A DNA stretch of 64,000 nt from NCBI RefSeq assembly GCF_009914755.1, contig NC_060933.1; one strand, 5' to 3'. The notes below the pieces were generated by a model, which was not told the DNA's origin, ran no database searches, and was given only the letters and a program-made list of their open reading frames with translations. Positions 170-43,859 of this stretch are shown piece by piece (the stretch's first letter is position 1; every line of letters starts with the position of its first letter). This DNA comes from the human T2T-CHM13v2.0 reference genome, Homo sapiens. A program made the position numbers and the translations under genes.

Positions 170-255
170 CTGAAAAGATGGACACACTCAGGTATCTCTG
201 AGCCAGGCAGGTTGGCCTTGTCTTAGGTCATCAACAACTTGTTTCAGTAGCGTGC
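170..255 (-). pseudogene. GC pseudo-exon: end of hinge / start of cyclase catalytic domain
   Basis: AG acceptor at 256-257 and GT donor at 168-169. Reads (S)TLLKQVVDDLRQGQPA..AQRYLSVSIF(F)S with two 1-nt deletions, matching the class III cyclase entry motif MLPxxVAxxLxxG....Y.SVTIxFSD. Confidence 0.9.
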
Positions 256-2023
256 CTATTTTTAGGTATGAATCCGAACAGTTAATTACCCTTAAGGAAA
301 AGGACACACGGGGGCCCACTGTCATGCCTGCAGCATCATTTTTTACATTGGCACTCTCGATTGTTCTGTCCTCCATACACAGTAAGTAGGGTATGGTTTG
401 CATGCTGTTTGCTGGGCCACAGTGGATTTGTACCAAGTCAAGTGTATTCCCTAACCCAGTCTTCCCCGGGGCCACTGTTGAGATGGGGTCAGGGGTGCTG
501 CTAGGAGTGGAGAGAGAGGAGAGTCAATTGGAGGAATGGAAGCTCTGCCTGCAACCTCATTAGGATCAACCTTTACTCATCTAGCACTTTGGTCATTGAG
601 ATTGACGCCTCCCCTAACTTAAAATACTTATTATGGGAACCAGGACCTCAGGGTGCGTTAAGCAGGCCCAGCTTCCACCCTGCAGTGATTTGCAATTTCC
701 TTGTTGGGAGCGGTGGCAGCATTGTTAGTTCAGAGAGCTGGGCTTTGCCCTTTTGGGAGGTTGTGGGGCTTTTTGCTCCCAAGAGGTGGCTATTACCTTC
801 CTCATGGGCAGTTTTTTTCTAAACAGGAAGCGGTGGATGAACAATTTTACCATGTCCTCCTCTAGTCTTGGGGATTAAAAATCTTAAGTTATTTGAATCG
901 TTAGGCTGTCGGAAGAAAAAAATCAACTAAGATCGCCATTCTGTCTACAGGGTGAAAACAAACAGAGTGATTTACTGGGCACATTTAGCACTCATTTCCC
1001 TTGCAGGAAGCTTGGGATCCCCTGGAGGGATAAAGGATGAATATTTATTGGAGCCTAATAATGGTGGAAAAACCTGATTTTGTATTTTTTTTTCTGTGAA
1101 AGAAATAGGGTGATTTTATATATTTCCCTTAGGAATTTCTGTCTCAATAGCGTTTTTGCTATACGTATTCATAATCTACCCTGGTAATATTGTCTGCTAA
1201 ATACTTATAAATGCAGCATGATCTGGCTATATTGCTTCATCATTAATTGAGGAATATAAAATGCAGTCAGGCCTCCAATCAGTGTTTACAGAGCACCTAC
1301 CATGTCCCAAGCACTGGACTAGGCACTGAGGGATGTAAAAATGAACAAAATTTAGTTATGCCACACAAGAATTATATAATCCTGCTAGATAAACAGAAAT
1401 GTGTACAGTTAATCACATACGTATACTACTTGAATATAAAAGTCAGGCTTGCCATGGCCAGGAGAAGGTTTAAAGGGTTACACAGGAAGTATTGACATGT
1501 TTCTACCCAAAGGGGGGATATCTTTTATTTCATATAGATTTAGAAAGTTATTCATCTCACCAAAAGGAAGAGATTAACTCATCCAGTCTACAGAATAGGA
1601 CTGGCAAAGACCCCAAAGGCTTATGAAAATGAATAACTTGGATTAGCTTGGTTCTTCATTTTTGAGCTGCCTTTGAGAATATGGATGAAAACACGGGTCC
1701 TCTCCTGGAAAAATGCACATATATACCCAGTCTTGCATGTAATTTCAGGGATACATGGGCCACTTGAAACTTCAACATGGACTGTCTAGAGCACCACCAA
1801 ATTAGATAAGCAGACAAAAGAGCCAACAATGACATTCTAGTAAACATCAATATTTAGAAGTAAAAAGGCATTTAGAGGAAGTCAAACAGAGAAGAGCCAT
1901 TGAAAGAAACTATGGCATTGTCAGAATTGAGTTGCACTGTGGGGGCTATTCATCCAGGGCAGCTCTCTGGGTCATCAGGCATCACCAGTTGGTAAAATAT
2001 CCATGTAAATGCAATAAAATAGA

Positions 2024-2398
2024 TGCATTAGTCTGTTCTCAGGCTGATAATAAAGACATACCTGAGACTGGGTAATTTATAAAGGAAAGAGGATTAATAG
2101 ACTCACAGTTCCACATGGCTGGGGAGGCCTCACAATTATGACAGAAGGCAAGAAGAAGCAAGTCATGTCTTACATGGAAGGCAGCAGGCAAAGAGAGAAA
2201 TGAGAGCCAAATGAAAGGGGTTTCCCCTTATAAAACCATCAGATTTCATGAGACTTCTTCACTACCACAGGAACAGTATGGGGGAAACCTCCCCCATGAT
2301 TCAATTATATTCTGCTGAGTCCCTCCCATAATATGTGGCAGTTATGGGAGCTACAATTCAAGATGAGATTTGTGTGGGGACACAGCCAAACCATATCA
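2024..2398 (-). mobile_element. THE1-type MaLR solo LTR
   Basis: TG...CA ends with typical THE1 sequence and a 5-bp TSD ATAGA (2019-2023, 2399-2403). Confidence 0.9.
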
Positions 2399-2950
2399 AT
2401 AGAGAAAAATGTATTTACCAAAAACTCCTCTAGAGGGGCTTACCATATATGACTGAATGGAATACTTGGATAGCCCACTTGGGAAAGCAATGACACCTCT
2501 AAAGGATATACTCTCTAATAACATAGTCACCAAACTGCCTTCCTAGGAAGACAGGTCAGATTAACTACTTGGCTTTTGTTTTCCTGAGTAGACTCTGTAG
2601 GGTTGGGGCCAAAGCTGAACTGCTTGGGGTAGGGCTGGGGTAGTGAAAGCTGGGAGGCTTTTTTGCCTTCAATCCTATCTAGTCAGTACACACTTCCCTC
2701 TCTCCATCATCATTACCACCATCATCACAGTCATTATCAACATCATCACTAACACTTGTTCTACTCCAGGCGCTATCTAAATACTACACAGACTAACAAT
2801 GAATGCTCACAACTCTCCTATGATGTAGACATTATGATGTCCATTTTATAGGTGAGCAAGATGGAAGAGATGAAATTTAAACACAGGGAGTCTAAATCTA
2901 GAGCCCTTTTTCTTAGCCACAACACAATACTGATAACATTCAAATAAAAC

Positions 2951-41059: not shown

Positions 41060-41290
41060 TTATGCTCTGGAAGATTATTGTCAGTAGAACTAATGAATTT
41101 TAAATGACTCATTTTGAAGATTTCCTTCCATGCTATAACTACTAGTTGCTCCATTAGTATCCTTAGAATTGGAGCTATCACTCCAATTAACTCCAATATA
41201 ACACTTGAATAGGGCTGAATGTTTGTATAGAAACTATTAACTTGACTAACAGTTTGAAATGATCCCACTTTGATCTTTAGCAACCCTATG
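41060..41290 (-). pseudogene. Candidate GC ectodomain pseudo-exon
   Basis: Non-repeat sequence. Reads ...IQPYSSVILELIGVIAPILRIL... and ends in phase 2 at a GTGACT donor, compatible with the TM exon. The 5' boundary is not resolved. Confidence 0.35.
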
Positions 41291-43660
41291 TGATAAGTCA
41301 AGCTGGGGACACATCTGCATTTTGTAGATAAGGAAAGGGAAATACAAAGAGATTCAGTGACTTACTCAAAGTCACACAAGTAATAATCAGCACGAGGACT
41401 TCAAGTCTGATCTTCTGACTCTACTCCTTGGCCCTCTGCAACCTCCCAGCCTCAATAAAACACTGGGAGGGGATGCTTCCAGGTCACACACCTCCTGTGA
41501 CAGCCTCTTTGTTATGTTGCCCTGGAGAGCCACCTGCTCCAGTCCTATGGAGTGCCATAGAATTGTCTTATCCCTCTTTCACATACAGACCTTCTACTTT
41601 TTGAAAACAGTAATCCTGTACCCTTTAAATCTTTTATTCCTGAGCTAAACATCAGAGTCAAATTCCCTGAGAGCTATTTTATCTGTGAGGCACATGAAAC
41701 TCAGTGGCTAGGGTCCATTGCTTTTCAGGGGCCTATGGAAAAAAAAAAAAGGTTCCAAGATACAGATAACAAAATTGAAATTAATAGCCATTTAATTAAC
41801 TACCTGAAAAATGTAACATTATGTCAATGTCATTGTTAAATTTATTATTCATTTATAAATTTATTACAGGTGAGAACACTTGTAGATTAGATTCTCTTGT
41901 TTTGCAAGAATTCCTGAGTAGGCACACTGATTGATTTATGCCTACTCGGGAGAGTAGACACAGACAATTGTAAATTGAATAATCATGTATAGGCAAATAA
42001 CTTCAAAGGCAAAAATATAAAAATCCCTTCAACATTTTTATGGAAAATTTTACATTTAATTCAAGATGTGGGTGCATTTTAATTCGTTTGATCTAAGTGA
42101 TGATGCCTCCAAAAGAGTCTACATAAAGCTTAAAATGGTCCTGAGTCTTCCATGGCCTAAATTTCTCCATGTAGGCCAACATAACTTTTAGTAAAATTGC
42201 TCCTTGTGGCTTCACAGTTTATGTAATTTCTTCTAGTTGCTGAATTTAACCAGTAAATTGAACCCCATTTACATTTGTTTGGAAGAAAATGAAGTTTCTG
42301 GGAGCACTCTGGGTCCTGCCACAATTCCACCAACATGACCTATCATGTTGTCAGAAGCGTCCTCTCTCCACACCACACAAATCTAATCTCTTCCAGACAT
42401 GATGAGAAACTGCTGTAACTCTGGCAAAAGAGCCACTGAAGTCAGCCACATTGCCAAGGGCACGGTTTTAATTGCCTCAAGGAGCCCTGGGGTGCACGGG
42501 CAGCACCCTAAATATATTGTAGGTTAAAACCATCTTGCATCCAGACACAGACTGTTAATTCTGTTAAACTTCTTCTATTCAAGTGATATGCCAGGTATCG
42601 AAAATGGGCAATTCTTTAAAGGTGCAACGGCTCTGTGAGTGCTCCTTTCACAGGGCCTAACGTGAGACCATCTGGCACGAAGGCTTCATCTGTGATGCCC
42701 TCAGAAGTCACCAAGAGGAAAAGCTGGGAGGATCTGCTTGTGAATTCCTAGGGCCGGTAATGATGACAAACCTGCTTTCTAGAGGGCTGGGCCTATGGGT
42801 CTTGGCTTCAATCCCAGGCCTGCGGGAAGTCGTGGGGAGCTGGATGATTGAGGCAATAGTACTGATGGTCTCTGCCAAAGCCACAGCCAATTCTAGAACT
42901 GGCTTCCCTGCTGGGAAGATGAAAGCCTGAGTTTTATCTGGGTTCTAGGAGGACCTCCAGAGTTCCTCTTCCTTAGGCAGGAAACAAAGCAAGCTCTTAA
43001 AGGGGGCAGGGTAGGGAACATGGGGCTCTGCATCAAGGTGTGTGTAGAAAAAGCTGCTACCCAAAGCTACTCTGTTCTCAGAGGCTCAGCATCCTGAATG
43101 AGGATGCATTTGCCTCACAAAAGCCCTGTCTCAGTCAAGCCCTTTGGAGTCTATCCAAGGTGACCACCTGCCCTATCTTCTAAGTCTACTTGTTCCATCT
43201 CTGTGCTTCAAACCTGAGTTTGCCTCTGTCCCAGCCCTTCAGATTGATGTTCAGATCAGCTTGGGTCTAGTCTCTGGCTTCTCTGATGCTGTCTGCAGGC
43301 TTCCCTGTACTCCCAAAGCCAGTCCTGACTCCAAAACCCAGCCAGGCCTGCAGAGCTTCACCATCTCTGGTTGTCCAGGCAAAAACTCTGAATGCTGTAA
43401 TGCAGAGATCACTAGAGCTTCTATGTAGAGACTCAGCCAAGACCCTTGAAGAAGGGAGACAAGTTTGGCCATGAAACAATAAACCACCTTTAGAAACTCA
43501 ACAGCACTTATTGGGTGCCTGTGGAATGGTGCTAGGCACTGTGGGTACAGCAAGCTCTGCCTTCACAGAGCTTAGAGTCACCTTCAGACCCGCTGAACAG
43601 ACACTCCGCTTCCTTACCTTCTGCTGGTAGCATGGTGTTTAGGCTTCCAGGGCAGCTTAC

Positions 43661-43859
43661 CTCTTTCCAGTTCTGATATGGGCAATAAGAGAAGTCACAC
43701 CTGTGTGGACCAACACCACCGGGAATAGCAATAAAACAAGGGATCAGACAACCAAGGTACATTCCATCCCTTCCAGCTGATTCTTTCTAGTTTATGCATT
43801 GTTGCTCTGGGAACCCCAGGATCTATGGGTATCTTCAGCACAGATCCATGAAGTTGCAG
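43661..43859 (-). pseudogene. GC pseudo-exon: Cys-rich ectodomain
   Basis: CTCTACAG acceptor and GTAAGC donor, 199 nt. Reads CNFMDLC*RYP*ILGFPEQQCIN*KESAGRDGMYLGCLIPCFIAIPGGVGPHRCDFSYCPYQNWKE (7 Cys, 3 stops). Confidence 0.68.

What the first reader, a model, noticed from the sequence alone, without database searches (positions are those of the whole stretch)
170..43859. Fossil of a lost receptor guanylyl cyclase: 12 collinear pseudo-exons over 44 kb, almost invisible in the ORF track
Seen directly: exon relics on the minus strand assemble in order into a single-pass receptor. The order is Cys-rich exon (43661-43859), CGNGLCE plus TM (40276-40427), juxtamembrane (29534-29669), kinase-homology exons (25781-25865 VAIN, 21327-21470 HPNI…EYCPKGSL, 19833-19952 GMAYLH…GKLKS, 18227-18368 DFG…APE…DVYS, 14004-14050 ILLEI, 10764-10868, 8969-9087 RPVF), hinge (8597-8689) and cyclase entry (170-255). 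Established knowledge: a pseudokinase lacking the HRD Asp, then the MExY…ERT…EK.KTD hinge, then IFFS(D) defines membrane guanylyl cyclases. Inference: the introns show this is the gene's native locus rather than a retrocopy, so it is probably a unitary pseudogene.
Basis: partly seen in the sequence, partly recalled or inferred. Interest (0 to 1): 0.9.

Follow-up and report, generated by a model that had tools for sequence, protein, structure and literature searches.

The report
Dead eighth receptor guanylyl cyclase gene
This stretch of human chromosome 9 holds the decayed remains of a cGMP-making cell-surface receptor gene that sharks, fish, frogs, reptiles, birds, platypus and marsupials still keep intact, which points to an extra receptor class that placental mammals appear to have lost.

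Summary
A profile of 28 intact vertebrate orthologues finds collinear minus-strand pseudo-exons only. The relic is larger than reported. It has 21 pseudo-exons over 108 kb (window -26679 to 81613), and the predicted cyclase exons lie in the left flank. It covers 770 of 847 opossum residues at 64% identity, with 11-12 in-frame stops and about 12-14 frameshifts.

The parent is not NPR1, NPR2 or any of the seven textbook mammalian cyclases. It is a separate ~850-aa family, auto-named "ANP receptor 1/2-like". Its ~210-aa Cys-rich ectodomain has no Pfam match, no PDB sequence match and no ANF_receptor signal. That ectodomain is 44% identical between opossum and a mollusc.

In a careful tree the relic sits inside the mammal clade (support 100/98) on a branch 7-10 times longer than those of intact mammals. 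The ectodomain matches nowhere else in the human genome, so this is a unitary pseudogene.

None of the best 120 database relatives is eutherian. Ten literature searches found no description.

Not tested: synteny, shared lesions in other placentals, ectodomain fold.

The parts
54722..54844 (-). Pseudo-exon E4: ectodomain ...CAS*IPDDGQMFTH...MTH*N*TSKV, 3 stops. Two further ectodomain pseudo-exons lie beyond the right edge of the window and cannot be listed here: E2 at window 81510-81613 (GLEMAWIQRPP..., 1 frameshift; E 0.05-0.1; 21/35 identical) and E3 at window 72433-72585 (KEFCEDM*CPASWKDADGDNC..., 1 stop and 2 frameshifts; E 1.9e-10; E 5.4e-10; E 3e-10; 30/50 identical).
   Evidence: E 4e-7. 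E 1.3e-4; 24/40 identical.
43622..43719 (-). Pseudo-exon E5: ectodomain VVLVHTGVTSLIAHIRTGKR*AALEA, 1 stop and 1 frameshift.
   Evidence: E 9e-6; 25/33 identical.
40276..40423 (-). Pseudo-exon E6: membrane-proximal Cys motif (VCGNGLCE...) plus the transmembrane helix (AFPICLVCIAFAITVL), 1 frameshift. Several conserved cysteines are replaced.
   Evidence: E 1e-3. E 0.014; 22/50 identical.
37155..37225 (-). Pseudo-exon E7: juxtamembrane WFQYQKQKMF*GKRW, 1 stop and 1 frameshift. A polypyrimidine tract plus AG lies upstream.
   Evidence: E 0.27; 17/24 identical..
29532..29695 (-). Pseudo-exon E8: Ser/Thr-rich juxtamembrane segment ending LLASRKRHFTQS. Weak match, 2 frameshifts.
   Evidence: E 9.3, not significant alone; 18/55 identical. 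It is collinear with the other exons.
25780..25860 (-). Pseudo-exon E9: start of the kinase-homology domain, RTVAINRIKKKTFTFSKVIHREVLQVK
   Evidence: E 4e-6; 16/27 identical.
21329..21472 (-). Pseudo-exon E10: kinase-homology domain, RELDHPNICRF...EYCPKGSLMDVLLNDNISFNWGF. It is still an open frame.
   Evidence: E 1e-23. NPR1 in PDB, E 2e-9. Pfam PK_Tyr_Ser-Thr 7.6e-7; 34/48 identical.
19819..19938 (-). Pseudo-exon E11: kinase-homology domain, DVA*GMAYLHQCKMYRGKLKSTDYVIDGC*VCKIS, 2 stops. RGKLKS stands where active kinases have HRD.
   Evidence: E 5e-6; 25/41 identical.
18229..18369 (-). Pseudo-exon E12: kinase-homology domain, NFGLQLYRK*DFNA*...LAPE...GDVY, 2 stops
   Evidence: E 1e-7. E 0.049; 24/47 identical.
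14007..14060 (-). Pseudo-exon E13: kinase-homology domain, ...AAAVILLEIATSSDPV
   Evidence: E 0.014; 12/18 identical.
10764..10868 (-). Pseudo-exon E14: kinase-homology domain, KEERYSEEHSLCLPLELLITGKPENHYPCPSEYAE. The acceptor ...cccatag is kept.
   Evidence: E 3e-8; 23/35 identical..
8966..9093 (-). Pseudo-exon E15: end of the kinase-homology domain, LIRRCRKNSSYQRPVFQQIKK / LNKINPNKDSVPYMMMPL, 1 frameshift
   Evidence: E 2.5e-4..
8595..8689 (-). Pseudo-exon E16: dimerisation/hinge segment, MEKYSKHLK / VAERTHDLMHEKHKTDHLLCS, 1 frameshift. Acceptor AG and donor GTAAGT are kept.
   Evidence: E 1.3e-6; 24/32 identical..
174..250 (-). Pseudo-exon E17: entry to the cyclase domain, LLKQVVDDLRQGQ / AQRYLSVSIF, 1 frameshift. 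The donor GTAAAT is kept. Five further cyclase-domain pseudo-exons lie beyond the left edge of the window and cannot be listed here. E18 at window -1502..-1335: SDIVGFPRLST / STLYQVVDFLDKLYTTF / ...YDVYNMETMGNA, 2 frameshifts, GDA changed to GNA (E 1.8e-4 and 0.014; 35/55 identical). E19 at -7166..-7014: MVASRV...CAGIHSG (E 6e-16; E 2.6e-9; Pfam Guanylate_cyc 1.2e-3 at 18.9 bits, below the 21.9-bit cut-off). E20 at -18822..-18751: VTGVVGTKMP*CCLLGD, a stop at the Arg of MPRYCLFGD (E 0.81; 15/24 identical). E21 at -24631..-24539: ALKIQCSSSAYQILEQIGDYILVC (E 1.4e-11; 26/31 identical). E22 at -26679..-26521: GKREMVTYWLEGKK... plus the C-terminal tail (E 1.2e-10; E 7.8e-6; 29/52 identical).
   Evidence: E 1.4; 17/26 identical; the intron splits the Ser codon of FFS|DIVGF.

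Best explanation
This is non-functional DNA: the unitary pseudogene of a single-pass receptor guanylyl cyclase, lying at its original intron-bearing locus on the minus strand of chr9:32,833,321-32,941,613 (T2T-CHM13) between TMEM215 and BOLA3P4/APTX. Every domain is disabled by stops and frameshifts. The parent gene belongs to an eighth vertebrate receptor-cyclase family that is still intact from cartilaginous fish to marsupials and monotremes and has clear relatives in molluscs, annelids, a nemertean and a brachiopod. Inferred from the intact orthologues, the ancestral protein had these parts: a signal peptide; a ~210-residue Cys-rich, N-glycosylated ectodomain of unknown fold ending in a VCGDGxCE..E.C..CP.DCG.CP stalk; one transmembrane helix; a Ser/Thr-rich juxtamembrane stretch; a pseudokinase domain (VAIKK lysine kept, HGRLKS where HRD would be); a coiled-coil hinge; and a class III cyclase domain with the same ETIGD and RYCLFGD motifs as NPR1. 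By analogy with NPR1 and GC-C (inferred, not shown), it would act as a homodimer in which an unknown extracellular signal switches on cGMP synthesis. The gene was probably inactivated early in the placental lineage and has since drifted neutrally.
For: Shown:
1. The profile HMM of 28 orthologues gave 26 of 27 hits at E<=10 on the minus strand of the 134-kb region. All 26 are collinear from profile position 50 to 856. The one plus-strand hit has E 8.5.
2. There are 21 pseudo-exons covering 770 of 847 opossum residues, 490 of them identical, with 11-12 in-frame stops and about 12-14 frame changes.
3. Splice acceptor and donor signals are retained at several borders.
4. Careful IQ-TREE (20 rows, 548 columns): the relic forms a clade with platypus, opossum and koala at support 100/98. 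Its end branch is 0.54 against 0.05-0.075 for those three. The family is separated at 100/100 from ANF-type cyclases. The quick tree of 38 rows agrees.
5. The relic is 66-68% identical to the mammalian orthologues and 36-38% to ANF-type cyclases.
6. The ectodomain query hit the human genome 5 times at E<=1. The 3 hits with E<0.01 all lie at this locus; the other 2 have E 0.13 and 0.80.
7. Of the best 120 of 866 relatives, 3 are mammals (platypus, opossum, koala) and none is eutherian.
8. Every family member scanned lacks ANF_receptor: 8 of 8 full-length members, and all 120 precomputed rows list only kinase, HNOBA and cyclase domains. All 5 outgroup cyclases carry it.
9. hhalign of the family ectodomain against the ANF ectodomain gave probability 0.8%. 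The ectodomain profile found 0 PDB chains at E<=10 and no real Pfam hit in 11 members.
10. Three unnamed ORF fragments (P0004, P0007, P0008) align to the human relic exon and also to its upstream intron, and share the derived PDVVIV.
Against: - The first coding exon (signal peptide plus GWHDLDN...) was not found between window 81.6 and 124 kb.
- Synteny with the intact orthologues could not be tested, so orthology rests on the tree and on uniqueness in the genome.
- No DNA of other placentals was available, so shared inactivating lesions were not shown and the date of loss is inferred.
- One search listed only the best 120 of 866 hits, and one search ran with a stricter first look.
- The relic is a long branch. 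Its place within mammals (sister to marsupials) has weak support, 83/25.
- Exon E8 and the in-window part of E17 are not significant on their own.
- Exon 10 looks slightly better kept than its upstream intron in one fragment (36/45 against 25/38 by my own count, not significant). Later, independent losses are therefore not excluded.
Confidence: 0.92

Rival explanations
1. It is a duplicated, non-unitary pseudogene copied from a canonical natriuretic-peptide receptor gene such as NPR2, which lies about 3 Mb away on the same chromosome arm.
For: NPR1 is the closest solved relative of the intracellular part. NPR2 lies at C9:35.83 Mb (the gene name comes from my recall of the position).
Against: Four ectodomain pseudo-exons match only the non-ANF family. 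The relic is 66-68% identical to that family and 36-38% to ANF-type cyclases. The tree separates the two groups at 100/100. Approximate exon ends differ from NPR2 at three places and agree at two.
Confidence: 0.01
2. The gene died later and independently in primates or a few orders, and some placental mammals still have a working copy.
For: Only human DNA was examined. Exon 10 is still an open frame and looks slightly better kept than the adjacent intron in one unnamed fragment (my own count, not significant). A macaque RefSeq model joins relic exons E2 and E10.
Against: None of the best 120 relatives is eutherian, although placentals are the most heavily sequenced mammals. The relic's branch is 7-10 times the length of those of intact mammals. 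Three unnamed fragments that share the human intron sequence also share substitutions at otherwise conserved sites, and one has a deletion inside the exon.
Confidence: 0.1
3. The matches are chance or ordinary kinase-like open frames, and no gene relic is present.
For: Some single exons are weak alone: E8 at E 9.3, E17 at E 1.4, E20 at E 0.8.
Against: Twenty-six collinear same-strand hits span the whole protein, against one weak hit on the other strand. Single exons reach E 1e-23 and 6e-16. The ectodomain, hinge and cyclase exons are not kinase-like.
Confidence: 0.003

Closest known systems
GC-A / NPR1 (closest solved structure, e.g. 9bcv) and GC-C (8fx4)
   Same: The opossum orthologue aligns from the transmembrane helix to the C-terminus with NPR1 (E 5e-147) and with GC-C (E 9e-100). 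The layout is the same: transmembrane helix, pseudokinase, coiled-coil hinge, class III cyclase. The motifs HG.LKS, FSDIVGFT, KVETIGDAYMVVSG and MPRYCLFGDTVNTASRMES are shared.
   Different: The ectodomain is about 210 residues rather than about 440. It has no ANF_receptor signal and no PDB sequence relative. Several intron positions differ from NPR2. The ligand is unknown. The database names 'ANP receptor 1-like/2-like' are therefore misleading.
Human receptor-cyclase pseudogenes GUCY2EP (GC-D) and GUCY2GP (GC-G)
   Same: They are also unitary pseudogenes of receptor guanylyl cyclases in the human genome. [quoted passage not shown] Both loci appear among the hits; I assigned the names from recall of their positions.
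   Different: Those two belong to the seven recognised classes and work in rodents. This one belongs to an unlisted class with no placental member among the hits seen. It is not in the RefSeq table supplied for the window and is far more decayed.
Auto-annotated 'atrial natriuretic peptide receptor 1-like / 2-like' proteins of non-eutherian vertebrates (e.g. opossum F6Y3Q3, koala, platypus, crocodile, Xenopus, gar, sharks)
   Same: These are the intact orthologues. The relic is 66-68% identical to the mammalian ones and nests among them.
   Different: They are intact and highly conserved: ectodomain identity to koala is 67-83% across vertebrates. The human copy is broken in every domain.

Membership tests
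Receptor (membrane) guanylyl cyclase | Kinase-homology domain that lacks the catalytic HRD aspartate | tested here: met
   Pfam PK_Tyr_Ser-Thr scored 7.6e-7 on the E10 open frame. The relic reads YRGKLKS where the orthologues read HGRLKS. Orthologues match at 1e-42 to 2e-44.
Receptor (membrane) guanylyl cyclase | Class III cyclase catalytic domain C-terminal to a coiled-coil hinge | tested here: met
   The hinge exon E16 scored E 1.3e-6. Cyclase exons E18-E22 in the left flank scored down to 6e-16. Pfam Guanylate_cyc on E19 scored 1.2e-3 at 18.9 bits, below the 21.9-bit cut-off. Orthologues score about 1e-67.
Receptor (membrane) guanylyl cyclase | Single transmembrane helix between the ectodomain and the kinase-homology domain | tested here: met
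   E6 aligns AFPICLVCIAFAITVL to the hydrophobic segment of the orthologues, followed by the basic QYQKQK. No transmembrane predictor was run; this was read from the sequence.
Natriuretic-peptide receptor type (GC-A/GC-B), as the database names imply | ANF_receptor (periplasmic-binding-protein-like) ligand-binding ectodomain | tested here: not met
   None of 8 scanned family members has PF01094, while all 5 outgroup cyclases do. hhalign probability is 0.8%. The ectodomain alone gave no Pfam hit.
Unitary pseudogene | Reading frame disabled | tested here: met
   There are 11-12 in-frame stops and about 12-14 frame changes across 21 pseudo-exons.
Unitary pseudogene | Intron-bearing native locus, not a processed copy | tested here: met
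   The exons are spread over 108 kb and residual AG/GT signals survive.
Unitary pseudogene | No functional paralogue of the same family in the same genome | tested here: met
   The ectodomain matches only this locus in the whole assembly. The full-length query finds only other cyclase classes elsewhere (run with a stricter first look).
Unitary pseudogene | Intact orthologue in other species at the syntenic position | not testable with these tools
   Intact orthologues exist and the tree is congruent with the species tree. No eukaryote genome other than the window's own could be read, so synteny between TMEM215 and APTX is untested.

The most novel reading that the evidence does not exclude
The fossil marks an unrecognised eighth class of animal receptor guanylyl cyclase. 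The class is as old as bilaterians and has its own ectodomain: 44% identical between opossum and mollusc, more than 14 invariant cysteines, and no Pfam or PDB relative. Its ligand is unknown. All major vertebrate groups kept it, but it was discarded at or near the origin of placental mammals. On this reading the textbook 'seven mammalian membrane guanylyl cyclases' holds only for placentals, and a whole cGMP signalling axis, possibly together with its ligand gene, was lost with placentation-era physiology.
Probability: 0.5. Interest if true: 0.8.

Novelty: new variant of a known kind. Interest (0 to 1): 0.7.

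Why it matters
Reviews and the IUPHAR guide state that the mammalian genome encodes seven transmembrane guanylyl cyclases (PMC13351906 and PMC6170504, passages read). The data here show that marsupials and the platypus carry an eighth, and that humans carry its corpse.

The family's ectodomain is unusually conserved yet unclassified, so a conserved ligand or stimulus is likely. 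It can now be looked for in chicken, Xenopus, zebrafish or opossum.

The result also flags hundreds of database entries named "ANP receptor-like" as misnamed. It adds a third receptor-cyclase pseudogene to the human list, and it gives a clean case of a placental-lineage gene loss to date.

Tried and rejected
- Inflating the query length with intron translation, so that the word-index search would reach full-length proteins, failed because of stop codons.
- The protein-atlas search on the ectodomain gave nothing usable. One search had no hit. One search had a best score of 0.79 to a RYK/WIF-like cluster, which is at noise level and partly driven by kinase residues.
- Protein comparison on two alignments failed internally. 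I ran hhalign in a script instead.
No ectodomain model or fold search was made.
- The first coding exon was sought by a sliding scan (best minus-strand score 30, plus-strand control 32) and by the profile HMM out to window 124 kb and -60 kb. It was not found.
- An eclosion-hormone-receptor link was considered. The paper (PMC12393706, passages) says nothing about the ectodomain, so I dropped it.
- The stalk motif CGDGxCE...C..C..DCG.C recalls, from memory only, the start of disintegrin domains. Pfam gave no such hit, so I make no claim.
- Ten literature searches found no paper on this family or this pseudogene.
- The main text of Kuraku & Kuratani 2011 (PMC3296468) has no 'guanyl' or 'cyclase'.
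The seven out-of-window pseudo-exons are now described inside the entries for E4 and E17 and in the full report.

Full report
**Observation**

The clearest exon, window 21329-21472, reads RELDHPNICRF...EYCPKGSLMDVLLNDNISFNWGF. On its own it hits the kinase-homology domain of human NPR1 in PDB at E 2e-9, ahead of true kinases.

I built a profile HMM from 28 intact vertebrate orthologues and ran it against all six-frame pieces of the window. It returned 30 rows at E<=50. The 14 rows with E<1 are all on the minus strand and collinear with the protein. The 5 plus-strand rows all have E>=4.7.

Two (29.5 kb, E 9.3; 0.2 kb, E 1.4) are weak alone but collinear. One was misread: the "Cys-rich exon" 43661-43859 is really 43622-43719 in another frame and has no cysteine. 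Two in-window exons were missed, 54722-54844 and 37155-37225.

**Extent**

The window's own assembly could be searched, and flanks were fetched. Over 134 kb the profile gave 27 rows at E<=10. Twenty-six are minus-strand and strictly collinear, from profile position 50 at window 81616 to position 856 at window -26670. The single plus-strand row has E 8.5.

Pseudo-exons outside the window, in window coordinates on the minus strand:
- E2, 81510-81613
- E3, 72433-72585
- E18, -1502 to -1335
- E19, -7166 to -7014
- E20, -18822 to -18751
- E21, -24631 to -24539
- E22, -26679 to -26521

- SDIVGFPRLST...YDVYNMETMGNA
- MVASRV...CAGIHSG (E 6e-16)
- VTGVVGTKMP*CCLLGD
- two C-terminal exons (E 1e-11 and 1e-10)

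Nothing more was found out to window 124 kb or -60 kb. The first coding exon was not found. The relic therefore spans window -26679 to 81613, which is chr9:32,833,321-32,941,613, about 108.3 kb.

**State of decay**

I aligned each pseudo-exon to the opossum protein with a frameshift-aware method. This gives:
- 21 pseudo-exons covering 770 of 847 residues, 490 of them identical (64%)
- 11-12 in-frame stops
- about 12-14 frame changes, a few of which, at exon edges, may be alignment artefacts

Every domain is hit. The ectodomain has five stops and has lost cysteines. The juxtamembrane segment has one stop. The kinase-homology domain has four stops. The hinge has a frameshift. The cyclase domain has two frameshifts, GDA changed to GNA, and a stop in MPRYCLFGD.

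Residual splice signals remain: polypyrimidine-AG before E7, E14, E16 and E18, and GTAAGT or GTAAAT-type donors after E16, E17, E19 and E21. This is the native, intron-bearing locus and not a retrocopy.

**The parent gene**

An exhaustive HMMER search with exon 10 (618 proteins at E<=0.001) and two word-index searches recovered a family of ~850-aa proteins. Their automatic names are "atrial natriuretic peptide receptor 1-like/2-like".

One search listed the best 120 of 866 relatives. They come from sharks, a chimaera, sturgeon, gar, teleosts, coelacanth, amphibians, squamates, tuatara, turtles, crocodilians, birds, platypus, opossum and koala. Three of the 120 are mammals and none is eutherian.

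One search found 18 proteins, counting the query itself, from molluscs, annelids, a nemertean and a brachiopod that share the same ectodomain.

All these proteins carry kinase, HNOBA-linker and cyclase Pfam domains but no ANF_receptor. Eight of 8 scanned members lack it, as do all 120 precomputed rows, whereas 5 of 5 outgroup cyclases have it.

Evidence on the ~210-residue ectodomain:
- no Pfam hit
- no PDB sequence relative, either as a single sequence or as an 11-member profile (0 chains at E<=10)
- hhalign probability of 0.8% against the ANF-type ectodomain
- ectodomain identity to koala of 67-83% among the vertebrate members aligned, and 40-45% for lophotrochozoan members
- opossum against mollusc: 44% over 238 residues, and 55% over the intracellular part
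- more than 14 invariant cysteines, conserved NVT and NWT sequons, and a membrane-proximal VCGDGxCE..E.C..CP.DCG.CP motif

The intracellular part is closest to NPR1 (E 5e-147) and then to GC-C.

**Orthology and uniqueness**

A careful IQ-TREE run (20 rows, 548 intracellular columns) places the human relic with platypus, opossum and koala at support 100/98, inside amniotes at 99/97. The whole family is separated from ANF-type cyclases at 100/100. A 38-row quick tree agrees.

The relic's position as sister to the marsupials, which is what a placental orthologue should show, has only weak support (83/25).

The relic's end branch is 0.54-0.60 substitutions per site, against 0.05-0.075 for the intact mammals. 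That fits long neutral drift. By rough reckoning from recalled mammalian neutral rates, the drift has lasted on the order of 100 My or more. This is an inference.

The relic is 66-68% identical to the mammalian orthologues and 36-38% to ANF-type cyclases.

In the whole human assembly the ectodomain query matches only this locus: 3 hits with E<0.01 here, and 2 others at E 0.13 and 0.80. The full-length query otherwise finds the loci I recognise from their positions as NPR1, NPR2, GUCY2C, GUCY2D, GUCY2F, GUCY2EP and GUCY2GP, plus soluble and adenylyl cyclases (names recalled). This is therefore an eighth locus with no working paralogue of its own kind, which makes it a unitary pseudogene.

Approximate exon ends agree with NPR2 at two places (near opossum residues 731/732 and 764). 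They differ at three: NPR2 has ends near residues 378, 650 and 672, where the relic has them near 392, 632 and 680. This argues against a copy of the nearby NPR2 gene.

**Timing**

Three unnamed ORF fragments (P0004, P0007, P0008) align with the human relic exon 10 and also with the intron sequence just upstream of it, at 69-75% identity in translation. They share the derived PDVVIV where intact orthologues have PN(V/I)AI(V/I), and one carries a deletion inside the exon.

I read them as the same relic in other placental genomes, which would make the loss old. This is inference, because their origin is unknown and no other placental DNA could be read.

Human, macaque and tamarin gene models (P0001-P0003) are partial predictions over relic exons. 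The macaque model joins E2 to E10.

**Literature**

Ten full-text searches found nothing on this family or this pseudogene.

[quoted passage not shown] The former lists GC-D and GC-G as the human pseudogenes. Gesemann & Neuhauss 2020 and 2023 (outline and passages) treat only the sensory cyclases. Fitzpatrick et al. 2006 (passages) list seven mammalian classes.

The search covers open-access papers and bioRxiv only. GENCODE and HGNC could not be consulted. "Not described" is therefore a provisional statement.

**Verdict**

The locus is a 108-kb unitary pseudogene of a receptor guanylyl cyclase whose family is distinct from the seven recognised mammalian classes.

Three things remain open. Synteny is untested. 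The exact time of loss is not established.

Noticed in passing
window 57965-58111 (+): Rfam Metazoa_SRP hit (75.3 bits, E 4e-17) inside a repeat-masked stretch. It is almost certainly an Alu element (7SL-derived) and not an SRP RNA gene.
   Followed up: no
window 57394-57793: Tandem array of a 35-bp unit, 11.4 copies at 97% match, lying just upstream of that Alu in an intron of the relic.
   Followed up: no
window 63418-63876: Tandem repeats with 66-144 bp periods that carry repeated GATTGGT motifs. They lie inside the RefSeq 'enhancer 63082-64279'. From recall, this looks like the repeat region of an LTR.
   Followed up: no
window 48910-49216: Nearly perfect (99%) 34-bp TA/CA-rich tandem array, 9 copies.
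   Followed up: no
window 21329-21469 (-) and, outside the window, 81464-81613 (-): The macaque RefSeq model 'uncharacterized protein LOC114672773' (P0002) joins relic exon E2 directly to relic exon E10. The Celera human model hCG1808876 (P0001) and a tamarin model (P0003) also string relic exons together with intron-derived pieces. The dead locus may still be transcribed and spliced at a low level in primates, or these may be purely ab initio models.
   Followed up: partly
P0014 and P0019 (Lerista lizard model): These database models of the family skip the central kinase-homology exons, going straight from ...NWGF to SY.IILLEIATRSDP. They are probably mis-predicted or alternatively spliced and not truly short proteins.
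   Followed up: no
table, bird orthologues: Many bird orthologues sit on contigs of about 74-97 Mb. That is the size range I recall for avian Z chromosomes, which are homologous to human 9p. This hints at conserved synteny but rests on recall and contig length only.
   Followed up: no
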